Positions 1,593-57,648 of a DNA stretch of 64,000 nt are shown here, in pieces. The position numbers and the translations under genes were made by a program. Position 1 is the first letter of the stretch. Every line of letters begins with the position of its first letter. The notes beneath the pieces were generated by a model. The model was not told the origin of the DNA, ran no database searches, and worked only from the letters and a program-made list of their open reading frames with translations. Source of the DNA: Vermamoeba vermiformis (lineage: Eukaryota); contig JBEWZL010000179.1 in the NCBI GenBank assembly GCA_045837725.1, positions 620,001 to 684,000 of the forward strand. Reading direction: 5' to 3'.

Positions 1593-3666
1593 TTATTTCT
1601 TCTTGTAATGAAAGTTAGGCTTCTCAGCTTTCCACCACTCGCGCATGAACTCTTCGCATTCTTTACGAGTGCCGGTTGGGTGCCTGAATTGCCAATCTAA
1701 TAGCGTTGAATTTAAGTAGCCCGCAACTGGACCGGAGGTCTCTCCGAGAATGTACAACAGTTCGTGGGTCTGAAAAAGTAATTATTAATGTTGGATCCGG
1801 TTCATTCGGCCAAAAGTATCCTTACTCTAATTAATGGCTCTACTTCAAATGCGCTCATGAGGGTCTTGTTTTCCAGGTAATTCGTCAGCAAGTCAAATCT
1901 CGCCTTAATCTCCGGATCTATCGTCAAATCAAATTCGACTTCATTTTCATCTTCAAACCGTGCCTTTAACTTTGATAATGTCTGTACTATTTGCGCTATC
2001 ATATACGATTGTTGCCATTTAGCACCAAGTGACCGAATAATCCTTGCTGGAATTGCGGGATCCAGCTCGTCACCCAAAGTGTCAAAATCGCTTAGTATTG
2101 TTATCCACTCAAGTGCGTTAATCATCATATCAAACGCTGTATTGGCGCACTTATTATTGACTCGCCATTTTTGACTCATTCCGTACTTCGTGAACGGAAA
2201 TTGTTCCGGATCTGTCACTAAGAACGGCAACAAGGCAAAACTGTAGAATATGACTGATACATTGAATTGATCTTCACCTTCGGTTAAACTATAGTGATCA
2301 TATTAATGAGTATTAAAGAAGCTAATTGATATTAGTCGTACTTGTTGAAGGCGTATTTGACGCTGCTCCAAGCCATTCTGTGGTGCACTTCGCGCCACAC
2401 AGATTCGTTATCTTTAGTAAAAACAGCCTCGTGCATATGATACTTGAAGAATAGTTGGAGGCCAATAAGCGGTTTTGAAGCTAAAAATGGTATTAGATTG
2501 TATTCACCAACGTGCTCTGGTCGCAAACTTACCCTTGAGAATTTTCTCGAGCTCAATAATTTTTCGTTCAGGTGACACTTCGAGCAATAATTTCTGTATT
2601 GAATATTAGTATTGTAAGCATACATGCATATAAACGTACTATAGTCTCGGGCTTATTAAGGCGCGCAATGAGTGACTCGTGTATGGTAAAATTGGACTTG
2701 CCGGCAAATCGTGCTAAAGTGAGGTGTCAACGAGTGTCAAGTACAAAAAATCATTCAAACGTACCGGTACGAATAATTCTTAACGGGTCTTGTCCCCAAA
2801 TTATTTCTGGTGCCAGAGGCGTCCTTAATATTTTATTTTTTACGTCGTCCAAACCGCTCTTCAAAAATGTTGTTAGACCACCGTCTTTCGAACAAATTTT
2901 AAACTTACGCCGGTATAATCTTCGACTAACTTTGTCCGTATATTGTAAAATAAGGCATTGATAGTTAAATCGCGGTTAACTGCATCTGTTTCAGGTGTAC
3001 CTATCTATATAAAAGTTGGTCAAACATGGTATTTTACAGCGGATCTGGATCGAACTTACTTCGGTAGAATTTACATCCGCTCGTAGATTAACAAAGTCTA
3101 TATGAGTGTTGCATATTATCATCATCGTATTATCAAGACTTTTATGCCTGACGGGGTTTGCTGGCAGATACGAAATGCCTTGAACTTTTGTCGGATGATT
3201 TTCTTTGATTAATTGGCATAATAATGATACGGGCATAGTATCAATAACTACATCTATATCTGCACTTTCTAAACCGAGTAACTAAAGACAAAATTATCAG
3301 CTGTACATTCCCAAAAATAGAAAAACTCTTAAAATTAAAACCAATCGAGTACACCACTAAATAAAATAATAGTGCACGATAATATTATCAATTAATGAAA
3401 TAATTATTGTATTACCTTGTCTCTAACCCATCCGCCAGCAACTCTGTAAAATAATTTTGAGAAAATTTCAATAATTAAAATAATGGTCTTACAAAACATA
3501 TCCACCATTAATTAACTTATTTAAAATTTACTTACCTCGCTTGAATTTTTTTATCTGGCGACACCAGATCTAACAGCTGAACAATTGTAGAAAATATCTC
3601 CTCTTCTACGGGCAGTAGCTTGACAGTAGTGCTGTCACTATCTTTAATATTATTTGGCCTCTCCAT
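1593..3666 (-). CDS. Class II tRNA nucleotidyltransferase (CCA-adding family), probably CC-adding type, multi-exon
   Basis: Motifs RVAGGWVRDK...ESADIDVV (A), IDFVNLR, GTPETDAVNRDLTINALFYN (B), VEDYTG (C) and QDPLRIIR (D). Confidence 0.9.
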
Positions 3667-6449: not shown

Positions 6450-6696
6450 GGAGAAGCATTAATTAAAATGACACGATCCACCCAGGTTTGAAAAATAAGC
6501 TGACACGACAAAGCAAGCCCGTGGGCCAATAATCACAATGTGCGCACGTCGTAACATGCAGACGTAAGTCAACACTACTGAACAAAAGTACCTTCACTTC
6601 ACGAAGGGCAAATCCAAACGGATGTGGCTTGAAAATTATTTATTCGTAATTTTCAATTTACAAATATTGGTGTTTTTTGATTTTTAATTATAAGTC

Positions 6697-7459
6697 TTAT
6701 TTTTGGGACTTGAACCAGTTCAACAACCAGTCCAACTCGGCGGAGGGCTCACCTAATTGTCGAATAAAATTAATACCTCGTTCCAATATTTAGCCAAATG
6801 AATATTATTAATCTATTGAATTGTAGTCGATAATTTTTCGCCAGTGGCTCCATCATTATTAGTCGTTAAAAAAAATTATCGGATGGTGATCAGATTTCTG
6901 CTTACCGTAGTCTCTGATGACGACGCAAGAAGCACCAACAACCTTGCGGGCATTGCCGGTCTTATCGCGCTTGCACAAACCAGCCCATTCTCCCAACTTC
7001 ATGGAGTCATCAACCTTCAAAAGTTGGATGTTGTGGGCCTTGCACAAAGCTTCGATGAGCTTGACGTATTCACCCTACGTAATAACGCCATTTAGATTGT
7101 TGTCCATAATTAATAAAACGAATGAATATCAACAAATAAAAAATTATAATAATCCAGATTTGATCGATTGTTCTCGTCTGTTGCTGCCAAATAATATCTT
7201 ACCTCCTCGCAATTCTTAGCCAAGAGGCAAAGGTGAGCTTCCTTTCGGTCGAGGGCTTTAACGCACTCACGGAGACCACGAGCGAGACCATCGTGGATCA
7301 AAGACTTCTTAAGGACGGCTTGAAGGGCGGTGTTAACGTCCATTTCAGCACCAATAGGTTGGGCAACCACATCTCTTTATATGGGTAATTATTATTTAAT
7401 TCTGGAATTATTTGTATGCTGAATCTGCGAATATTTACCCTGCTCCTTGATCGGCCATT
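6697..7459 (-). CDS. RPS12: 40S ribosomal protein S12 (eS12), multi-exon, with a 5' UTR intron
   Basis: [32 protein letters not shown] and [27 protein letters not shown]. Confidence 0.97.
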
Positions 7460-7791
7460 TTAACTTGTTTACCTCAAGTGAGTTTCCTTACTAAATACAA
7501 ATATTATCAGCATTTATTCGAGCATCGTCAAAATCGCGTCAATAAGAAACCTACATGGGTTATTGTTCGTATCAGAGAGGACAAAGGAAAGAAGATAATC
7601 TCGTCGCCAATTTTGGTTTTATGGAAATAAATTTGATAAAAATTCGTTCCCGTGACTTAATCGGTCGCAGTTAAGCCATGAAATCAGATCGAGCATTTCC
7701 TGGAAATAGGAATAACACAAGAGAATAAAATCGACATTTTACCACAATATGTCCTCGTTTCTTTCAGCCAGCGCAATAGATCCAGTAAATT

Positions 7792-10195
7792 ATGGATCCC
7801 ACGAGCAGTTCTTCGGACCTGTCGCGATCTCAAGCCCCGGTATTAAGCGCTAATAATAATTCCACAAATAACCCAAACGAGCAATTTATTTCACCGTCCT
7901 TGTCTATTCCAAACTTCGTTGAGCAATGTAAGTACTTACAACGGTAATAATAATAATTTCGAAAATAACGTGTAATTATTTAAAATATCGTCCTAAAATT
8001 ATTTTAGACTACAAAAATTCTACTTTTCATCACCTATCAACATGGCGAATGAAGATGCAACAAATGGCGCGACAAGCTGTTCATCTCGACGAGCAACCCT
8101 TACCCGCAAAGCCAAAGGGAGCAGGAAGCGAGAATTCATCGCAAAGCAGTGGCAGCAGTGGAAGGTCGAGCGATTTGTTTTCTTCGAGTACTAGCAGTCC
8201 TGAACAACGCAAATCCGCACCTCAAGTCAATAAGGCCGCCTTAGCAGCACAGAAGTTGCCTGTGTCTCCCGCGAAGCTTTTGCAAGAAGAAGAGCGAATC
8301 ATCTTGCACATTGACATGGTACGTATGCTTCTCACTGTTTACAAGCATTTTGGAGCATTGATCTGAAGTTCAACCGAGACGGCGACGAACGATCTGCGTC
8401 TGTGTCCTTGCTAATTGTTTTTTTTTTTCTCTCAGGATTGCTTTTACGTGAGTGTTGCTCGACGAGATAATCCTGGTCTCAATGGCTTGCCCGTCGTTAT
8501 TTGTCCATCGAAGAACATCCTGGGCACTTCAGAGATCTCCTCGTGCAGTTACGAGGCACGACAGTACGGCATCAAAGCACGCATGTACGTCAACGAGGCA
8601 CGCAAGTTGTGCCCGGATATTGTTGCGCTGCCTTGTCAATTTGAGAAGTACGAGAAAGCCAGCGAGGCATTGTACGCGGAGCTGTTCAAGTGGTGCGGTG
8701 CGAGCCGAAGAGACACGGAAGGTGTTCAGTCTGATGTGATGGAAGCTGTGAGCTGCGACGAGGCCTTCTTGGATATCACGGATTGGGGCTGGGACCGCGC
8801 TGATACCATGGCGGTAGAGCTCAGGCAAGTTTTTCAAAATCAACAACACGAAATTTTTCAGTTTCTTACCTTTTGTACAGACAAGCGGTTTTTAACGCCA
8901 CTGGCTGCCCGTGTTCTGTTGGTATAGCGAAGAATCCTGCTCTGGCGTACATGGCCAACAAACACTTCGCCAAGCCTTCGAAAGGAGCTTCGGGCGTGTA
9001 CATCTTGTATCCGGACGAGCACGACCCCGCACGCGCGGCAGAGTTCAAGTATTATCAAGCGGCTGAAGAACGAAGTATTCCTGATCAGAACACAACGGCG
9101 TTCTTGAGCAAGTTGAATTCCGTGTCAGATCTGCCTGGTGTTGGTGCTGCTCTTACTAAGAAGTTAGCGGAGCAGAGTATCGTGAAAATCATTCCCGACC
9201 TTCAAATCCAATCCCTCACAAAGCTGCAGAAGGTGCTTGGAAACAGCACGGGCATTCGACTATTCCAACTCTCGCGAGGTGTGGATCCGAGACCTTTGTG
9301 CGCAAGCAAAGAGCGCAAGAGCATCTCAACGCAGATTTCATGGGGCGTGCGTTATCAGACCGACGAACAGATCAAGGCATTTTTGGAGGATCTCTCGCGT
9401 GAGTTGAAGAAACGTCTCGAAGAGATCTCCATGCTCGCCAAGCGCGTTGCTTTACGGTTGAGGAAGCATTCACAAGGAGACAAAGAGTCCGACAAATTTA
9501 TGAATCCTGGCCAAGGGCAGAACATTTCACGCTCCGTGACCTTGCCCGAGGCGACGAGTGATGACGCGGTCATTGCCGATGCTGCATTCAAGTTGTACAA
9601 GGCGATGAAGCTGACACCAACCGAGGTTCGTGGAGCAGCCCTGGCTTGTGAACAGTTGACGAAGAAGTCGTCCAGCAAACGCCGCAACAAATCCACTAGT
9701 AACGCACCGAAGGTGAATACTTTGCTGCAATTTTTGAAGCCCAGCGCGAAGACTGAAAGCGCTGCCATCACGAGCAGTTCAAACACACTGCCAGCCCCTC
9801 CAGAAGTCAATGATTTATCGTCGTCAGAGCCGGATCTGTCGCTGTTTTTTGACGATGAAAAGTCGAGCAGTCCCGAACCCGAAGAAATTTTGCTCTTCAG
9901 CGACGACGACGAGTCTGGTCATTCAATGTCAGCCAGTAACACGACAATACCTGCACCTCCTCCCGTCGAGTTTATCTCTGCCAAGAAGCTCTTGGAGACA
10001 ACGCCAGTCCCGCCCAAACCGAAGGCTGTGCCTCCTGTTGCGAGCGCTAAAAAGAAGCCCAGTCCCGCAGCTAAAAAGCAACAGCAAAAGAAAAGAAAAG
10101 CAGACACCGAGGCAACTCAACACGACACTAATGAGCCGCCAAAAAAGAAAATGAAACAAACCACGTTGTTTCAAATGATGCCTGCCAAGAAGTGA
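7792..10195 (+). CDS. REV1: Y-family DNA polymerase, REV1-like, with an atypical N-digit and no BRCT, 4 exons
   Basis: IILHIDM|DCFYVSV, EISSCSYEARQYGI, AVSCDEAFLD, LPGVG and RKSISTQISWGVR. N-digit-like segment YYKNSTFHHLSTW. Confidence 0.85.
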
Positions 10196-10566
10196 CGATC
10201 CGCCGTACTTTGATTTGTAAATAATCCTGTTTCATAAAAAAATTGATTTTCCTTTGCTGGCTCGTGTCTTATAATATAATATTCGTATTTCAATATTATC
10301 CTCCGTCATGGTATTTTTGAATTTTGTTGAGTTTATTGAATCTGAACCGAGTTGCTGTTCTGATTATCAAAGAGCTTGTGGTTTTAGCAGTTGCTATATT
10401 GTTATATTATATACACGTTGTATGCTGAATGGCCATTTTGTAATATTAATCTGATCTGTTAAGAAAAAAAGAGGTCAGATTTCCGGATTGATCGACAGTC
10501 AAATTGACCCAAAGTATCTCCAATAGCAACCGTAGTTAAAAATTACCTTTCATGCGAGTATATAAT

Positions 10567-11126
10567 TTAGTGCTTGTGGCCGTAAGCTTGAGCAAAGGCT
10601 TCGGACTTGGATTTGCCTTCGCTGCGGGCTTGGTAGAACTTCCACCATCCTTTAATTCAAATAATTAATATATTGTGCGTATTTTCAATATTGATAATGA
10701 ACTTACTGGATTCTGCCTTAACACGGTCTATTGAAAGAAGAAAAAAAATTGTTAGTAAATGCAACGGTAGATACGCGAGCATAATAATGGAAAATTTAAT
10801 ACAATATTATAATAATTAATAATTGTCGATATTCTAATTAATATAATGTTTGAAACAGCTAATAAAGCCAATAAAACAATTATAACGATTTTTGATGCAG
10901 AAAATTATTTTTCTATAAAATGCGCCTAATCGCCAAATAAATAAATTAATTCGTGTTAAATATGCTTACTGGAGACGGCAGAGTAATCTTGAGGCTTCAA
11001 AATACCACGGAACAAGTATCCAGTAGTGAACATGGCAAGAATGAAGGGACCAGTACCCCTCATGTGACCAGCAGACATGAAGCGGGCGAAGCCAGAGTGA
11101 GTGGGAACGATTTTAGCGGGTTCCAT
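10567..11126 (-). CDS. Small single-pass membrane protein (about 85 aa, 3 exons), possibly a mitochondrial inner-membrane subunit
   Basis: MEPAKIVPTHSGFARFMSAGHMRGTGPFILAMFTTGYLFRGILKPQDYSAVS|NRVKAES|RWWKFYQARSEGKSKSEAFAQAYGHKH*, joined by GTAAG-AG introns. Confidence 0.7.
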
Positions 11127-11520
11127 GATATGTGTATGATCGTTGGTCAAAAACAAAGATATCAGCAACTTTGATCTAAACACTTTTTGCAACCAACGAA
11201 CACAGATGCAGTAACTCACGCGCAACTCACCAAAATTGCTAAATATATAATAATTCTAATTAATGAATATTTCTTCGATACGTCGTATAGTTTTTTTTAT
11301 CACCCCGAAGGAAGCAAAACTTTAGATTTGAATCTCAGCGTTTCTAAAATAAGGTATAATATTAATTCTATGAAATCAATCGTATTTGAACATTTTGTAA
11401 TAACTAGACGTCCAAAATTAAGCTGGGATGAGACGTCTGGTCACTACGGTGATTCTGCGGTTCCGCCCCTACCATTTATTGAAATTTAAATTTAAATTTA
11501 ATTGATAGCACCATATTACG

Positions 11521-31081: not shown

Positions 31082-32574
31082 ATGCTGCAACTCCGAGGGC
31101 GAGTCGATTTAGATCGTGCCATATCCACATTCAGGCTAAATCCTAGTGCAAAGGATAAATTAGCAGCGAGTGGATTGCGAACGTTGCGTGATCTTGAAGG
31201 GATGAAACCGATCGAGCTTTCAAAAGGTCAGAAAAATATTTAAATATTTTTGTAGTGCTACATGCCGATATAAGCACGTCTACATTACATTATATCCATT
31301 TTTATTGGTTAATTAATTTTTCTAATTATTTTCATGACAGAGATCGGCTGTTCTCATCAAGAAGCGCTTCAAATTCTAAGAACTATTCAAAACGACCTTT
31401 CCCAATTAAACGATAACCCACATATAGCGAATAACAACCCCGACTCGATTGCCAACTCGGAAACGAATTTCAATAATTTTGGATTTCAAGCCAATAGTAA
31501 GTCAATAATTCTATTAAGCGATGTTTATGCTAAAAAAAATCTAGAAACGAGGGACATAATTGAAGGACAAACAGCGTTTTCACTCCTCGAGAAAGAAGTC
31601 GATAGCACACCAATTATTACGTTTAATCAAGCCATTGATGATATGCTTGGTGGTGGTGTTGCGTGTGGTAAATTAACAGAATTTTGTGGCGTTCCTGGCA
31701 TTGGCAAGACTCAAATGGGGTAAGTAATGTAATTTCTCTAGCGACCGAGATCTGACTTGCGTCATAGCATTCAATTAGCCGTAAATGTGCATATTCCAAA
31801 AGCGTTCGGTGGATCAGAAGGCGAGTGTATTTATATTGGTAAGTGAATGGAACGTAAAACGCGGGGAACAAATATCGTTCGAAATTTCCTCTATTTTAAT
31901 TTTTTGGTTGCATTGCTATTTAAAGAAATATTTCTAACTCGCGTGGTAATTCGACAGACACTGAGGGCAGTTTCATGGTTGAACGCGTGGTCGAAATGGC
32001 GACGGCGCTGGTGAAGCACTTGGAGGCTGTTAGTCAAGCTAACGAGGGCATGCAAATGACCTTGACAGTGGAGCACATTCTCGATCATATTTATTACTTT
32101 AGAGTGCACGATCATATCGAGCAAATCGCATTAATCAATACTTTGCCGTTGTTTATGGAAACACATCCGAACGTCAAGTTGTTAGTGATTGATTCAATCA
32201 CTTTCCACTTCCGCCACGACTTTGAAGATATGCGAGTTAGAACTCGTTTGCTTAATCAAATGGCGGGACAGCTGACTTCAATGGCTGCAAAGAATAATAT
32301 GGCTGTGGTGGTCATCAACCAAGTCACGACAAAAATGGAGGGCAACAACGTTTCTTTGGTCCCGGCACTCGGAGAGACATGGGCGCACGCGTGTACCGAG
32401 CGCATTACTTTGCAGTGGGCCCCGACTGGTACTGCAAACAGCAACGGCACCGAATGTCGTATCGCTAGACTGGTCAAATCATCGTCGCAAAGAGCCCAAG
32501 CAGTGCCGTACCAGATCACGCCTGAGGGTATTAGAAACTTTGATGCGCCGTCATCTAATGTAAATAATGAGTAA
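31082..32574 (+). CDS. RAD51C: DNA repair protein RAD51C, 5 exons
   Basis: TEFCGVPGIGKTQ, IDTEGSF, VKLLVIDSITFHFRHDFED, RTRLLN and LVPALGETWAH. Confidence 0.92.
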
Positions 32575-49766: not shown

Positions 49767-52602
<2,836 letters not shown>

Positions 52603-52964: not shown

Positions 52965-55900
52965 ATGGCCTCCACTAAAATCGTATCAGGTACGTTTAAA
53001 TCAATGTTATAATCTCCTTCCTTATTTGAGTTAGCACTAACTATTTTTTTTTAGCCGTAATTATCCTTATTTTGGGTTCGGTTGCACTTTCCAATGGTAA
53101 GTTTATTAGTGCCACAAAATAAACTGCACGCTATTAATTATTGCCGATATTCTGTTGCAATTTTTAAATTTTATTCTTTTGATCAGGCTGTTTTACCTTC
53201 ACCTTTCCGCTTCCCACAGATCGGTTTTCTACGTCAATCGCCTCTGTAGAGAACTTTGTAATATTTATTGGAGGAAGAATGACCACGGCAAGGGAGATTA
53301 TTTTGGACAGTGTTGACATCTTGGATACGCAAGCTCCTCGATCAGCTCAAAGGTGGACTTCCTCGGTTATGCATTCAAGACGTGTTAGAGCGCTAACAGC
53401 TACAATTGGAAAGAAATTGTTTATATTTGGAGGAGTCAATGGGGCTAATGAAGCAGTCCGGGATGTGGAACTGCTTTCTTTCGAATCTTCGCCACCAGTT
53501 ATGTCTATCGTTGGCACGATCGATTATGACCGTTCAATAACGTCCGGTAACAATTTTTTGACGGTCGTAGGCAACGAGCTTGTAATTTCAATTGAAAATG
53601 GACTGCTATTTTACGACTACACTACGAACATTACAAGAACAGCTACCTTTGCGGCTTCAACTACAGTGCATGTGACTGGAGGATTATTTGCTGTTGATGA
53701 TCAGGCCTTTGTAGTCTTCAACGAAGGCGTCACGGTGTATCGATCAGGAAACTACACTTTAGAATTCCAACCCTTCCGTTACGGCATGGACATTAACGGC
53801 AGACTCATTGGTGCATATTACTTAAATACACTTGGCTACATAATTTCGGAAGCAGGCATAACACTTTTCAACCCACAAACTATCGAACTCCTACCGTGGC
53901 AACAAACATCAAATTTGGTTAATTCAGCAGTCCAGCATGAAAACAACTTGTTCATGTTCACTGGCCCCAGTCGCGGTGTTGTCAATACTATCACGACATA
54001 TCAAGCACTTTCACAAGTCAAGTTCTCGTTGCCCTATACACGATACAACTTTGCCTCAGAGGACTTTGCAGTGGTTGGCAGCGGTGATAACTTGTACGTA
54101 GTTGGCTGGACGTTCAATTCGCCCGTGCCATCGACGCAGGTGCTGGTCTACGACATTGCGAACAGCCGTCAGCAGTTCACACCATTCGATTTCGATAAAG
54201 ACTTTGATTTGGAAGCACTACACGAGCAGAACGACATAATTTACACAATTGTGAGGATCCCTTCAGATGGACAACGAGAGCTGATTGTGTACAACTTGAG
54301 ATCAAGAACAGGCACTGCCCGTCTCTTGAACGCCCCTTACGAGTTCAAAAGTGCCCACACAATCAATGGAAGCAACTTGATTTACTTTCACGGCACTGAT
54401 TCTACACAACCTGTCACGGACATTATATTGGTCTACAATCCGAATCCTGTTGGGCTGCAAGTTATATCTGTTCCAAACGGGTACGAGGTAACCAACCTGT
54501 ACACAGTCGGAACAAAGATATTTGTCGACAGACGGTCACTTTCACTTCCGATCTCAACGCTCGACATCTTTGACACGGCGACAAGTCAATGGAGCACGTA
54601 CAATCTTTCATCGGCGCAGCTAGAATTCTTCGTGCTCAGCAAAGGCAACAAGCTTGTGTTGTTCCCTGATCACTTTGCGATGCTCTATCAATTCGACGTT
54701 TACGACTATGGCCGAGATCGTTGGTCTGTCATTCAAATCGAGACACCGAGAAGATTTGTTACTTCAGAGATTGTAGATGACATTCTCTACATCGCTGGTG
54801 GAGTTTCAGAAGAAGGAAATTTCTTGGACTCAGTCGAAGTGTACGACTTGGTCACGTTAAACAAGATCAATAGTCTGAAACTTCAAGAGCCAAGACGATT
54901 AATACTCGTCGAGTCGTTGCAGCCCTATCTTGTCTTCGCTGGTGGCGAGCTCACGGATGGATCTTTGTCAGCGCACATTGAAATCTACAACACGCACAAT
55001 CAAAGCTGGCACGGCCGTGCATTATTTCCGCTACCAGAACTGATTGGACTGAACTTCGGGATCTCTGCAGTTGACTCAAGACTGTTTTTCCGATACAACA
55101 ATTACGTCTATATTCTCGATCTGACGAACATGCGTATTGATCCGCTGATGATCCCGTTCATGTCCGGATATGGCAGCCACGTGATAGGCACGAACATCAT
55201 CTTCTACGGTCAGTACGGAAGACTCTCCGTGTACTTCTTTTACGAGGTGACGACTGGCTCGGTCTTTCAAATCAACACCCCTCACGTGTACGACAGAAAA
55301 CACACGTTGCTGTGGCAAAACCAATTTGTGTTTTTCATGCGTGGGATTGCTGTAGTGCCCGTGCCCTTCATGTCGAACACATTGACAAGCCAACACGTGT
55401 TCATGGACCAATCAGTCCAGTTCTTCGTCAACGCGACTGGCAACTCTCTTCGCTACAGCTGGCGCTTAAATGACAGGCCTTTGAATGTCACATCACCAAC
55501 ACTGACAATTCCTCGAGAAAGCCTTCAGAACGGAGTGTACTCCGTCCACATCACTGACCACTGTCAAGCGACTACATCGCAGTCAGCTTCACTGATTGTT
55601 GAACCACCGCCATCCTTTACCCGACCGTTCTCTCAAGTGATCGCATTATGCAACGCTGTGGCACGCCTCCAAGTCGAGACTACAGGCGAGGAAGTTCAAG
55701 TGCACTGGACTCTGAACGATAGACGGTTACCCGATTCTGGCCGGTCAATTGAAATTCCTATGGCGGACTTGGATTGTGACGCAACGCATCGCTTGTGTGC
55801 TATTGCATCAAATCCATCAGGATCGACTCCGAACTGTGGTCCTTTGCAGCTGTTAGATATAACTCGTGTGTTTAATGGCCCAAGACCCGATTCCAACAAC

Positions 55901-57648
55901 CCGTTCTTGACAACTGGCTCGCACATCACGCTTCAGATTGACGTTATCTACGAGAGCTGCACCAATCACACGTGGTATCTAAACAACGTTGAAGTTCTCC
56001 CATCCAATGATCGCTCAAGCACGTATGATTTTGTAATTGGACCCGAAGGCGCTCAGTCTGGCTCGAAGTTCTACGTCGTGGCAATCTGTGGAGAGTCACG
56101 ATTAACCTCGGACCCGTACATAGTCCCAGATACTACTATTCCCGTATGGGCCTTTATTATTATCCTAATTGGTGGTGCTGGCGTTGTCAGTGCAGTTGTA
56201 GTCATCACTTACATCAATTACAAACGGCTGCAACGAAGCAAAGAACAAGAAGTCGAACTCAAAACCATGTTAAGCAAAGCGCACGAAGAAACAATTGCTC
56301 ACCGCAATAACAAAGGTGCACAGCTCATCAGCTGCATTACTTGGGAGTGGGAGCCAGACAGCAGCTTCTCGTTCGCTCCCATCGATAATTTCCCTGTTCG
56401 CATTGACACTTCACACCTCAGTCTCGGAAAGAAGAGTGATCTGCTTGAAGTCGATGTCTGGACACAAGGTGTTTTAGAAATTTCATCAAAGAAGATCAAG
56501 AAGAGAGCGAGAATATCATCGTTCTTGAATCAACGATTGATCGAAGAATCGCCTCACGTTACGATCTATGCGCCGCAGTCTCCAAAGTTCGAAGTTAAAG
56601 TCTCACCAGAAACTTTCAGTCTTGAAGACGGCACTGACGTCACCGTGACAGTCTCGGTCCGATTGCGAATTACCACCAAAGTGAAGATCAAGCTGTTGAT
56701 AGTCCTCGAGAACCAACGCGTCTATTCGTCAATTGACTTCACATTGGCCAGTTTGCCCTCGCCGTGGATTGACCTCGAAGACATTCAAATGAGCAACGAT
56801 TTCCTTGGCCGCGGAGGGTAAGTGTCAAAGTTATCAGACTGGCCTTTATTAATGTTGTTCATAGTTTCGGATCCGTTGTTCGTGGCACGTACAAAGGACA
56901 AGATGTTGCTGTGAAGACGTTGAAAGAAGACATTATGGAAGAACAAGAAAAGAAAGAGTTTGACCGAGAAGTGATGATCATGCGCAGCTTGCGCCATCCG
57001 AACATTGTGCAATTCATTGGTGCTTCGAACATTATGAAGCGCGTTGCTATTGTCACTGAACTGGCACCATTAGGAAGCCTTGCGTCGCTCCTAGCCAAGG
57101 ACTATCTTATCGCTTATCCACTCAAGCTCGAGATCCTATTGGAGATTGCCAGAGCCATTCAGTTCCTGCACGCAAACGATGTCATTCATCGTGACATTAA
57201 GCCTGGCAATGTCTTAGTCTTCTCATTAGAACCGAAAGCAACGACACACGTCAAAGTGTCAGACTTTGGCACGTCAAAATTTGTTGCAGAACAGGCAGCA
57301 CCAATGACGAAGAACACAGGCACTGTGAATTATAATGCACCTGAAACATTCGGAAAGAATCCATTGTACACTTTCAGCGCCGACATCTTCAGCTTTGCAA
57401 TTATGATGTGGGAAGTTATTACGAATGTACCAGCCTTCTCAAAGGAAATTCATCCTGATTTCTCATTTGACTACAAGATTGAAGAGCACATCATTGCTGG
57501 CAGAAGATTGGAAATCCCACGTGAGGTTGACCCTCGTCTTGCCGCTCTGATCACTGATTGCTGGGCGCACGATCCAAAGAGCCGTCCTACAAGTGACAAC
57601 CTTGTACAGCGATTGAGTGTTCTCGCGCAAGAAACACGCAACAATTAG
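52965..57648 (+). CDS. Receptor kinase: signal peptide, Kelch-like propellers, Ig-like domains, TM, juxtamembrane beta domain and TKL Ser/Thr kinase, 4 exons
   Basis: Kelch motifs LFIFGG, LYIAGG and LVFAGG; Ig-like LRYSWRLN...GVYSVHI; TM WAFIIILIGGAGVVSAVVVITYI; LGRGG|FG, HRDIKPGN, DFG and APE. Confidence 0.92.

What the first reader, a model, noticed from the sequence alone, without database searches (positions are those of the whole stretch)
7900..8060. REV1-like polymerase that has lost its protein-template residues (SRLHH to STFHH)
Seen: the spliced N-digit reads PNFVEQYYKNSTFHHLSTW, with codons ACT and TTT at 8022-8027. Flanking residues and the catalytic motifs (DMDCFY, SCDE) are intact. 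Known: in REV1 the Arg of SRLH (yeast R324, human R357) pairs with incoming dCTP, and the next Leu evicts the template G; this makes REV1 a dCMP transferase. Inference: with Thr-Phe instead, the enzyme cannot template dCTP in the usual way. It may be DNA-templated, template-independent or have a new specificity, and could be an undescribed Y-family subtype.
Basis: partly seen in the sequence, partly recalled or inferred. Interest (0 to 1): 0.85.

Follow-up and report, generated by a model that had tools for sequence, protein, structure and literature searches.

The report
REV1-derived polymerase with rebuilt template pocket
This gene encodes a DNA-damage-bypass polymerase descended from REV1 in which the two residues that make REV1 insert only C, and the pocket that holds the flipped-out template base, have been consistently replaced across a group of amoeba-related organisms, so its nucleotide choice is probably different and is worth testing.

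Summary
A four-exon gene (7792-10195, +) encodes a 716-aa Y-family polymerase. Its N-digit reads STFHH, with Thr at 8022-8024 and Phe at 8025-8027, where 143 of 146 canonical REV1 representatives have Arg and 142 have Leu. The splice is supported by cDNA-like contigs of an 87%-identical orthologue and by a spliced contig that matches the window exactly.

This is a clade trait, not an error. Thr-Phe occurs in 6 of 6 divergent lineages (about 35-52% identity) whose N-digit is available. These form a 100/100-supported clade inside REV1 that includes Echinamoeba and Mastigamoeba sequences.

The change is part of a wider signature. In yeast numbering it also includes F367Y (steric gate), H393P, G415R, Y436C, G684N and M685P. 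G415, G684 and M685 line the pocket for the evicted template G. Of the 146 canonical representatives, 144 carry none of these eight states.

The clade lacks the BRCT, UBM and REV1 C-terminal domains and ends in a PIP-like box. The catalytic carboxylates are intact.

My reading is an active, probably PCNA-tethered, base-flipping inserter with altered selectivity. A relocated templating arginine (G415R) is the main rival. I could not test whether a canonical REV1 coexists, because no genome is held. No biochemistry exists.

The parts
7792..7927 (+). Exon 1: start ATG at 7792 and 45 codons plus 1 base. It ends with the first half of the N-digit (IPNFVEQ). No BRCT is encoded.
   Evidence: The orthologue cDNA-like ORFs P0004 and P0013 start at the equivalent Met. 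The upstream neighbour is an S12e-family gene on the minus strand.
7928..8007 (+). Intron 1 (GT..AG, 80 nt, phase 1), which splits the N-digit.
   Evidence: The joint 7927->8008 is seen in an X7 contig, and 2 X18 RNA reads cross it. The same intron position is retained in frame in P0138 and L003.
8008..8318 (+). Exon 2: second half of the N-digit (YYKNSTFHHLSTW...), a low-complexity linker, and the first catalytic Asp (HIDM).
8022..8027 (+). Codons ACT TTT = Thr51-Phe52, at the positions of yeast R324-L325 and human R357-L358 (protein template and wedge).
   Evidence: Among 146 canonical representatives these columns hold R in 143 and L in 142.
8319..8435 (+). Intron 2 (GT..AG, phase 0), between HIDM and DCFY.
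   Evidence: The same position is interrupted in L007 and P0021.
8436..8824 (+). Exon 3: palm and fingers (Pfam IMS).
   Evidence: (IMS, E 4e-28).
8445..8447 (+). Tyr153 at the steric-gate position (yeast F367).
   Evidence: F in 146 of 146 canonical representatives and Y in 6 of 6 short-clade rows. F367 is named as the steric gate in PMC9130138.
8505..8507 (+). Pro173 at the position of yeast H393.
   Evidence: H in 137 of 146 canonical representatives and P in 6 of 6 short-clade rows.
8580..8582 (+). Arg198 at the position of yeast G415 (fingers loop; in yeast it contacts the extrahelical template G).
   Evidence: G 138, S 7, N 1 among 146 canonical representatives; R in 6 of 6 aligned short-clade rows and in L001, L003, L006 and L007. 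The role of G415 is from PMC5645340.
8634..8636 (+). Cys216 at the position of yeast Y436.
   Evidence: Y in 146 of 146 canonical representatives; C in 5 and A in 1 of 6 short-clade rows.
8757..8762 (+). Catalytic Asp-Glu of SCDE (yeast D467/E468).
   Evidence: The residues are named in PMC5645340.
8825..8880 (+). Intron 3, with GC..AG ends (56 nt).
   Evidence: This is the only splice that keeps the frame. The junction ...VELRQAV... matches P0004 and gives an ORF with a single terminal stop.
8881..10195 (+). Exon 4: the rest of the palm, thumb (IMS_HHH_1), PAD/little finger (IMS_C), a disordered tail and the stop codon TGA at 10193-10195.
9494..9511 (+). G-loop KFMNPG (residues 484-489). Asn487 corresponds to yeast G684, Pro488 to yeast M685 / human H774, and Gly489 to G686 / G775.
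   Evidence: Alignment. At the G684 position: G in 145 of 146 canonical rows, N in 6 of 6 short-clade rows. At the M685 position: P in 1 of 146 canonical rows and 6 of 6 short-clade rows.
10157..10180 (+). C-terminal PIP-like box QTTLFQMM, preceded by a Lys-rich patch.
   Evidence: A similar motif lies at or within a few residues of the C-terminus of P0004, P0020, P0138, L003, P0006 and P0007.

Best explanation
The gene encodes an expressed, catalytically competent Y-family DNA polymerase. It descends from REV1 but belongs to a distinct, conserved 'short REV1-like' clade, whose named members are the amoebozoans Echinamoeba, Mastigamoeba and Amoeba proteus, plus unnamed environmental relatives. 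The clade keeps the REV1 architecture: an N-digit helix docked over the active site, a G-loop insert in the little finger, and the palm carboxylates. Both halves of the protein-template device have been rebuilt. In the N-digit, Arg-Leu has become Thr-Phe. In the pocket that receives the flipped-out template base, G415 has become Arg, G684 has become Asn, and M685/H774 has become Pro. That Pro removes the backbone N-H which in yeast REV1 bonds N7 of the evicted G. The steric gate is Tyr instead of Phe. The scaffold modules of REV1 (BRCT, UBM, C-terminal domain) are absent, and the protein ends in a PIP-like box. Inferred mechanism: the enzyme is brought to PCNA by its C-terminus. It still pushes the template base out of the helix, with Phe acting as the wedge. 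It no longer reads the incoming nucleotide with the N-digit arginine. Its template-base preference and its dNTP preference therefore both differ from the G-template, dCTP-only rule of REV1. Shown here: the sequence, splice, clade, signature and domain loss. Inferred: activity, base flipping, PCNA binding and changed selectivity. Which nucleotide it prefers is unknown.
For: Descent from REV1:
- The best PDB sequence match is human REV1 at E 1.3e-61, against 7e-30 or weaker for other Y-family groups.
- The AF2 model has core pLDDT above 90 and N-digit helices at 39-46 and 48-69 with pLDDT 80-90.
- Its 13 best Foldseek hits are all REV1 structures, with target-normalised TM-score (TMt) 0.77-0.85.
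- REV1 sequences separate from the DinB outgroup with 100/100 support.

The clade:
- 8 rows form a clade with 100/100 support in the careful tree.

The signature:
- Of 76 columns that are at least 85% conserved in 146 canonical representatives, 11 differ in the short clade.
- 144 of 146 canonical representatives carry none of the eight signature states. Four short-clade rows carry 8 of 8.
- Thr-Phe is present in every lineage whose N-digit is available: the window group, P0020, P0138/L003, L001/L002, L006 and L007.
- The N-digit anchor residues around Thr-Phe (NF, YY, S, HH, LS, W) match canonical REV1, so the helix probably docks in the same way.

Published roles of the changed residues:
- R324 pairs with dCTP, and L325 fills the void left by the evicted G. 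The amides of M685 and G686 bind N7 and O6 of the evicted G.
- G415, W417, D399 and K681 contact the extrahelical G.
- F367 is the steric gate.
- Changes in the SRLH motif markedly reduce dCMP transferase activity. This is PMC7079036 citing Piao 2010, and the same paper reports its own H489N mutant.

Domains and expression:
- No BRCT, UBM or REV1_C domain is found in 7 of 7 members scanned, whereas four canonical controls scored them.
- The catalytic D..D and DE residues are conserved in all members.
- Spliced transcripts exist.
Against: - There is no biochemical or structural data for any member.
- The new Arg198 (G415R) may supply a guanidinium to the site vacated by R324. In that case dCTP selection could be kept.
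- The AF2 model has no DNA, and no coordinates were available to me, so I could not measure distances between Thr51, Phe52, Arg198 and a nucleotide.
- The tree had only bacterial DinB as outgroup, with no Pol eta, iota or kappa rows.
- The position of the clade among eukaryotic REV1 groups is an unresolved polytomy. Orthologue versus old paralogue is therefore open.
- Echinamoeba and Mastigamoeba sequences lack the N-digit in the available gene models. The motif is unknown in these, which are the only named members with the polymerase core (the Amoeba proteus P0007 fragment starts downstream of the N-digit).
- The PIP-like box departs from the canonical aromatic pair in several members, for example MM in the window.
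Confidence: 0.55

Rival explanations
1. Relocated protein template. The enzyme is still a deoxycytidyl transferase. The templating guanidinium now comes from the fingers loop (Arg198, at the yeast G415 position) instead of the N-digit, and Thr51 makes room for it. The other changes are compensatory.
For: Loss of Arg in the N-digit and gain of Arg at the G415 position are perfectly coupled. R is present in 6 of 6 aligned short-clade rows plus L001, L003, L006 and L007, and in 0 of 146 canonical representatives. The fingers loop borders the nascent-pair site in Y-family polymerases (my recall, not tested). The eight-state signature looks like a co-adapted set.
Against: In yeast REV1, G415 is described as contacting the extrahelical template G through waters, not the incoming dCTP. 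An Arg there more naturally points into the evicted-base pocket. The G-loop changes (G684N, M685P) suggest that template-base recognition changed as well, which a purely compensatory swap does not need. No geometry could be measured.
Confidence: 0.2
2. Ordinary DNA-templated bypass polymerase. The N-digit no longer occupies the template position, the template base stays in the helix, and the enzyme works like Pol eta or Pol kappa, recruited by its PIP box.
For: Domain layout is like Pol eta or kappa: a core plus a C-terminal PIP-like box, with no BRCT or CTD. The steric gate is Tyr rather than the Phe that is invariant in REV1. The G-loop has lost a backbone donor for G.
Against: The N-digit and its docking residues are strongly conserved across 35-52% identity. 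It is modelled as REV1-like helices with pLDDT 80-90. The wedge residue became larger (Leu to Phe), not smaller. The G-loop insert and K681 are kept, although DinB lacks the insert entirely.
Confidence: 0.15
3. Catalytically decayed REV1 remnant, kept for a non-catalytic role or on its way to becoming a pseudogene.
For: In canonical REV1 the scaffold role is often more important than catalysis (background stated). RNA depth is low.
Against: The scaffold domains are exactly what is missing. The catalytic carboxylates, steric gate, polar-filter Ser and the signature residues are conserved across six or more lineages. The ORF is intact and spliced transcripts exist.
Confidence: 0.07
4. Assembly, sequencing or splicing artefact at 8022-8027.
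For: None found.
Against: A DNA contig is identical. An independent spliced contig is identical (X7). Four orthologue ORFs and five further lineages carry Thr-Phe.
Confidence: 0.01

Closest known systems
Canonical eukaryotic REV1 (deoxycytidyl transferase; structures 3GQC human, 2AQ4 and 6X6Z yeast)
   Same: Y-family core. N-digit helix with the same anchor residues. G-loop insert with the conserved Lys (K681). D399-like acidic residue and S402-like polar filter. Catalytic D..D and DE residues. Best sequence match (E 1.3e-61) and best structural match (TMt 0.77-0.85). Nested with REV1 against DinB.
   Different: Arg-Leu of SRLH is replaced by Thr-Phe. F367Y, H393P, G415R, Y436C, N628S, G684N and M685P. 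No BRCT, UBM or REV1_C domain. A C-terminal PIP-like box. Length 604-716 aa, against roughly 900-1250 aa for most canonical hits.
Balamuthia mandrillaris REV1 (P0140), the nearest named canonical amoebozoan REV1
   Same: Its source name places it in an amoebozoan, Amoebozoa being the supergroup of the clade's named members. About 34% identity over the core.
   Different: It has a BRCT domain, SRLHH, a CFF steric gate, KNGM in the fingers, PY, and the G-loop KYLGHG. It does not group specifically with the short clade in the tree, where the node is a polytomy.
DNA polymerase eta / kappa (Rad30 / DinB-type eukaryotic TLS polymerases)
   Same: Overall layout of a catalytic core followed by a disordered tail ending in a PIP-type motif (the eta and kappa layout is my recall). 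An Arg in the fingers loop near the nascent pair recalls Pol eta R61 (recall only, not aligned here).
   Different: Far weaker similarity: Pol eta E 1e-20, Pol iota 2e-18, bacterial DinB 7e-30. These polymerases have no N-digit, and DinB has no G-loop insert.

Membership tests
Y-family DNA polymerase | IMS palm/fingers, HhH thumb and IMS_C little finger, with the catalytic Asp, Asp and Glu | tested here: met
   Pfam IMS 4e-28, IMS_HHH_1 4e-13 and IMS_C 7.5e-18 on the window's exons. DMD and SCDE are present.
REV1 | N-digit helix N-terminal to the palm | tested here: met
   Aligns to the human and yeast N-digit. Modelled as helices 39-46 and 48-69 with pLDDT 80-90. REV1 structures align over 530-556 columns, against about 405 for DinB.
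REV1 | SRLH motif: an Arg that pairs with dCTP (yeast R324, human R357) | tested here: not met
   Thr51 (ACT, 8022-8024). Among 146 canonical representatives the column holds R in 143, a gap in 2 and N in 1.
REV1 | Leu wedge that evicts the template G (yeast L325, human L358) | tested here: not met
   Phe52 (TTT, 8025-8027). L in 142 of 146 canonical representatives and F in 1. Phe might still act as a wedge; this is inference.
REV1 | G-loop whose backbone amides (M685/G686; H774/G775) bind the evicted G | tested here: inconclusive
   The insert and K681 are present, but the sequence is KFMNPG. The residue at the M685/H774 position is Pro, which has no N-H, and G684 is Asn. The function cannot be read from sequence.
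REV1 | N-terminal BRCT domain | tested here: not met
   No BRCT hit in the window's exons or in 7 of 7 clade members. Four canonical controls all score BRCT. Only about 330 bp separate the start codon from the neighbouring gene, and the one frame of that interval I submitted has 6 stops.
REV1 | UBM motifs and the C-terminal domain that binds REV7 and RIR motifs | tested here: not met
   No UBM or REV1_C hit. The controls P0282 and P0326 score REV1_C, and P0326 scores UBM. The tail is modelled as disordered.
REV1 | Phylogenetic position within the REV1 branch of the Y family | tested here: met
   100/100 split from the bacterial DinB outgroup, with the short clade among the REV1 lineages. Caveat: the tree has no Pol eta, iota or kappa rows. 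Their exclusion rests on the E-values and the fold ranks.
REV1 | dCMP transferase activity opposite G and abasic sites | not testable with these tools
   Needs primer-extension assays.
PIP-box PCNA clients | Q-x-x-[LIM]-x-x-[FY]-[FY] motif that binds PCNA | tested here: inconclusive
   QTTLFQMM ends 4 residues before the C-terminus. Relatives have QVTLAQMF, QPTITSMF, QPAISEF and QLTLFQIL. The aromatic pair is degenerate. Binding was not tested.

The most novel reading that the evidence does not exclude
A second natural protein-template code. This REV1-derived clade flips out the template base with a Phe wedge and holds it with Arg and Asn side chains in place of the two backbone N-H contacts (at least the M685 one is lost). 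Using Thr-Phe and/or a fingers arginine, it inserts a nucleotide other than C, possibly a purine. In its hosts it may be the only REV1-type enzyme, which would mean translesion synthesis there runs without the REV1 scaffold.
Probability: 0.3. Interest if true: 0.88.

Novelty: new variant of a known kind. Interest (0 to 1): 0.72.

Why it matters
REV1 is the textbook case of a polymerase that uses a protein side chain as its template. In every canonical REV1 I could align with the N-digit column present, 143 of 144 had the templating Arg; the one exception looks like a mis-spliced model. A natural, conserved lineage that has replaced that Arg, its partner Leu and the G-binding pocket, while keeping the catalytic centre, is an evolutionary experiment on how protein templating can be re-coded.

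It offers a defined set of eight substitutions to transplant into yeast or human REV1. It also separates REV1's catalytic role from its scaffold role in the opposite direction to the usual view, because here the scaffold domains are the ones lost.

If the enzyme inserts a different nucleotide, it would be a new tool for site-specific, template-independent insertion. It would also be a new entry in the Y-family classification.

Tried and rejected
- **Whole-genome check for a canonical REV1.** No genome is held for this window, so coexistence is untested. The window itself holds no second Y-family gene among its 10 longest ORFs scanned.
- **Earlier-findings look-ups.** Both were blank.
- **Sequencing-run search.** No RNA holder was listed.
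- **First tree.** My exon 2 end was one base too long (8319 instead of 8318), so the window row was out of frame and meaningless. I corrected this. The other rows already showed the short clade with support 99.
- **AU test** of 'short clade + Balamuthia clade as one clade'. It did not finish in two runs and I abandoned it. No result.
- **First regexes for the N-digit**. They were too strict and missed plant SRLHF forms and intron-split copies. I replaced them with alignment columns and a looser pattern.
- **Third homologue search, seeded with Balamuthia REV1.** Among its 120 listed hits it returned no further named amoebozoan canonical REV1. It therefore did not settle orthologue versus paralogue.
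- **Literature.**
  - Swan 2009 (PMC2739620) is not held.
  - Piao 2010 was seen only as cited by PMC7079036.
  - A search for Rev1 + R324A found 0 papers.
  - Searches on REV1 with N-digit/dCTP/arginine, R357/L358, human REV1 substrate discrimination, nucleotide discrimination + R324, Entamoeba, Dictyostelium, Amoebozoa and SRLH found no description of a REV1 lacking the templating Arg or of this clade.
  - Supplements were closed and might hold wider alignments.
- **PCNA complex prediction.** Not run: no PCNA of this organism was in hand, and a stand-in would say little.
- **Rejected idea.** I considered that the L..F motif after the little finger might be a clade-specific REV1-interacting motif. 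The canonical consensus shows the same L..F, so I dropped it.
Full report
**Gene model and the observation**

Reading 6500-11500 and translating the exons gives a four-exon gene on the + strand:

| Feature | Coordinates | Notes |
|---|---|---|
| Exon 1 | 7792-7927 | start ATG at 7792 |
| Intron 1 | 7928-8007 | GT..AG |
| Exon 2 | 8008-8318 | |
| Intron 2 | 8319-8435 | |
| Exon 3 | 8436-8824 | |
| Intron 3 | 8825-8880 | GC..AG |
| Exon 4 | 8881-10195 | stop TGA at 10193-10195 |

- Joined in a script, the exons give 716 codons with one terminal stop. My first attempt had exon 2 one base too long and was discarded.
- The N-digit reads IPNFVEQ|YYKNSTFHHLSTW.
- DMDCFY spans the exon 2/3 junction. 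SCDE lies at 8751-8762.

**Is it real?**

- A 1205-nt DNA contig of run X1 covers 7650-8104 without a difference. X1 may be the source of the window, so this is weak support.
- A 173-nt contig of run X7 joins 7927 to 8008 (GT..AG skipped) with no other letters. X7 has another organism label and study, and its being RNA is a guess.
- In RNA-Seq run X18, all 56 laid reads are 90-95% alike, so they come from a diverged relative filed under the same species label. They lie on the exons, and 2 of them cross the same joint.
- Four 708-aa ORFs on 2.5-2.8 kb contigs (P0004 from Logan; P0013, P0014 and P0016 from JGI, where the source names them 'DNA repair protein REV1') show exactly the three splice junctions of my model and carry STFHH. 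P0004 is 86.6% identical to the window's protein.
- An artefact is excluded.

**What family?**

- Pfam finds only IMS, IMS_HHH_1 and IMS_C.
- phmmer against PDB chains puts human REV1 first (3gqc, E 1.3e-61) and yeast REV1 next (about 1e-36). Then come DinB/Pol IV (7e-30 and weaker), Pol eta (1e-20) and Pol iota (2e-18).
- Thr-Phe aligns to human R357-L358 and yeast R324-L325.
- An AlphaFold2 model of P0004, built from a 70-row alignment (A2), has mean pLDDT 72. The core is above 90, the tails are disordered, and the N-digit is modelled as helices 39-46 and 48-69 at pLDDT 80-90.
- Its 13 best Foldseek hits in the PDB are all REV1 structures. TMt is 0.82-0.85 for human and 0.77-0.80 for yeast, aligned over 530-556 columns. 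DinB and Pol eta chains follow, at about 405-485 columns.

**A clade, not a one-off**

Searches of the 5.8-billion and 1.84-billion protein sets and one metagenome scan found relatives that share the unusual residues:

- P0020 (604 aa, 40% identical): STFHH.
- P0138 (698 aa, 39%): STFHH behind an in-frame retained intron at the same place as the window's intron 1.
- L003: same arrangement as P0138.
- L001/L002: STFSH, with a stop codon in frame upstream of the start Met.
- L006 and L007: STFHH.

That is 6 of 6 lineages whose N-digit is available.

Named relatives are Echinamoeba exundans (P0006), Mastigamoeba balamuthi (P0139) and Amoeba proteus (P0007, a C-terminal fragment). Their available models lack the N-digit:

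- P0006 starts just after it.
- P0139 is a chimeric gene model with GN3L_Grn1 and ankyrin hits.

The motif is therefore unknown in these models.

In a careful IQ-TREE analysis, 8 short-clade rows form a clade with 100/100 support, and all 36 REV1-type rows separate from two bacterial DinB rows with 100/100 support.

- The alignment had 38 rows and 583 columns, and the model was LG+C20+F+G4.
- Amorphochlora, P0137, P0160 and most representatives were left out, for long branches and for time.
- The clade's position among animals, fungi, plants, Diphylleia and the Balamuthia clade is an unresolved polytomy.
- No Pol eta, iota or kappa rows were available to me.

**The change is part of a signature**

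I aligned 6 short-clade rows with 146 canonical representatives. I dropped rows whose catalytic motif my pattern missed or whose core was shorter than 450 aa. Of 76 columns that are at least 85% conserved in canonical REV1, 11 differ in the short clade.

I mapped yeast numbers from the alignment (chain index + 304). The mapping is checked by D362, F367, D399, S402, G415, W417, K681, M685 and G686, which are named in the papers read.

| Yeast position | Canonical (146 rows) | Short clade (6 aligned rows unless stated) |
|---|---|---|
| R324 | R 143 | T in all rows with an N-digit |
| L325 | L 142 | F in all rows with an N-digit |
| F367 | F 146 | Y 6/6 |
| H393 | H 137 | P 6/6 |
| G415 | G 138, S 7, N 1 | R 6/6, plus L001, L003, L006, L007 |
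| Y436 | Y 146 | C 5/6, A 1/6 |
| N628 | N 125 | S 6/6 |
| K667 | K 92% | R 4/6 |
| G684 | G 145 | N 6/6 |
| M685 (human H774) | H 89, C 44, M 5, P 1 | P 6/6 |
| C688 | C 127 | V, G or C |

Counts are; the K667 row is.

- 144 of 146 canonical representatives carry none of eight signature states, and 2 carry one. The four short-clade rows that have an N-digit carry all eight.
- The DinB outgroup has F at the steric gate, Ala at the G415 position, no N-digit and no G-loop insert. The short-clade states are therefore derived within a REV1-type ancestor.

**What the changed residues do in REV1 (from papers; passages read)**

- R324 hydrogen-bonds O2 and N3 of the incoming dCTP. R324 and L325 fill the space of the evicted template G. 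[quoted passage not shown]
- In human REV1 the equivalents are Arg357, Leu358, His774 and Gly775 (PMC11012841).
- G415, W417, D399 and K681 contact the extrahelical G, mostly through waters (PMC5645340).
- F367 is the steric gate and S402 the polar filter. R324 forms sub-optimal bonds with dTTP, dGTP and dATP (PMC9130138).
- The SRLH motif is described as well conserved. Replacements in it are reported to reduce dCMP transferase activity markedly (PMC7079036, citing Piao 2010, which I did not see), and that paper's own H489N mutant lost activity.

At least seven of the changed positions therefore lie in the documented nucleotide-selecting or G-holding elements. A Pro at the M685/H774 position cannot donate the backbone N-H.

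**Domain architecture**

- None of 7 clade members scanned has a BRCT, UBM or REV1_C domain.
- Four canonical controls score them: Balamuthia BRCT; P0282 BRCT and REV1_C; a bird REV1 BRCT, UBM and REV1_C; Capsella BRCT.
- In the window the start codon lies about 330 bp from a divergently transcribed S12e-family gene. The one frame of that interval I submitted holds 6 stops.
- The stop codon is followed by another gene on the opposite strand.
- All proteins with a credible C-terminus have a PIP-like motif at or within a few residues of their C-terminus, after a basic patch: QTTLFQMM (window and P0004), QVTLAQMF (P0020), QPTITSMF (P0138, L003), QPAISEF (Echinamoeba) and QLTLFQIL (Amoeba proteus).
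- P0021 and the chimeric P0139 lack the motif. Both are gene calls on genomic DNA.

**Interpretation**

- The conserved N-digit anchors, the enlarged wedge (Leu to Phe), and the retained G-loop insert with its Lys and the acidic D399-like residue argue that the template base is still expelled.
- Replacement of the templating Arg by Thr argues that dCTP is no longer read as in REV1. The re-lining of the pocket (Arg and Asn side chains, loss of one backbone donor) argues that G is no longer held as in REV1.
- Loss of every scaffold module, with strict conservation of the catalytic centre, argues that catalysis is the selected function. The C-terminal motif suggests direct PCNA tethering.
- All of this is inference. 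The main rival is that Arg198 (G415R) takes over as the template for dCTP.
- I could not measure geometry, because no coordinates are returned and the model has no DNA.

**Orthologue or paralogue?**

- Canonical REV1 exists in the amoebozoan Balamuthia (P0140: BRCT plus SRLHH).
- The short form occurs in Echinamoeba, Amoeba and Mastigamoeba.
- No genome was available to test whether the two forms coexist. The tree does not resolve the question, and an AU test did not finish.

**Novelty**

Ten literature searches (and the passages read) found no report of a REV1 homologue lacking the templating Arg or of this clade. One review-type passage only notes that REV1 genes occur in Amoebozoa (PMC10320842). 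Supplements were closed.

I class it as a new variant of a known kind: REV1-derived, but failing several defining features of REV1 itself.

Noticed in passing
window 8825-8880: Intron 3 of the polymerase gene has GC..AG ends (donor context AG|GCAAGT). It is the only splice that keeps the frame, and it matches the orthologue cDNA-like ORFs.
   Followed up: partly
window 7928-8007 and 8319-8435; L003 about 2860-3050; L007 about 2760-2830: Intron positions are shared across the clade at 35-52% protein identity. The phase-1 intron inside the N-digit is also in P0138 and L003. The phase-0 intron between HIDM and DCFY is also in L007 and P0021.
   Followed up: partly
window 6862-7376 (-): A two-exon ribosomal S12e/L7Ae-family gene is transcribed divergently from the polymerase gene, with only about 330-400 bp between the two starts. 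This may be a bidirectional promoter.
   Followed up: partly
window 31924-32574 (+): An ORF with a Rad51-family hit (PF08423, E 4.8e-18). This is another DNA-repair gene in the window, probably a Rad51 paralogue exon.
   Followed up: no
window 50225-51647 (-): ORFs with PEP-utilising enzyme domains (pyruvate phosphate dikinase-like).
   Followed up: no
window 53183-57648 (+): A long ORF with Kelch repeats and a weak I-set hit, followed by a protein kinase domain. It looks like a receptor-kinase-like gene.
   Followed up: no
window 8846, 8870, 9959, 10236: The DNA run X1 holds minority contigs with small indels: 2 nt and +T inside intron 3, 6 nt in the low-complexity tail, and 1 nt after the stop. 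These may be a second haplotype or strain.
   Followed up: no
protein P0157 (ENA, 691 aa): One otherwise canonical REV1 representative reads SRFHY, with Leu changed to Phe alone and Arg kept. The wedge position therefore tolerates Phe in a canonical background.
   Followed up: no
protein P0139 (Mastigamoeba balamuthi model): The public gene model looks chimeric. It has a GN3L_Grn1 domain at the N-terminus and ankyrin repeats at the C-terminus around the polymerase core. This probably hides the true N-digit and C-terminal motif.
   Followed up: partly
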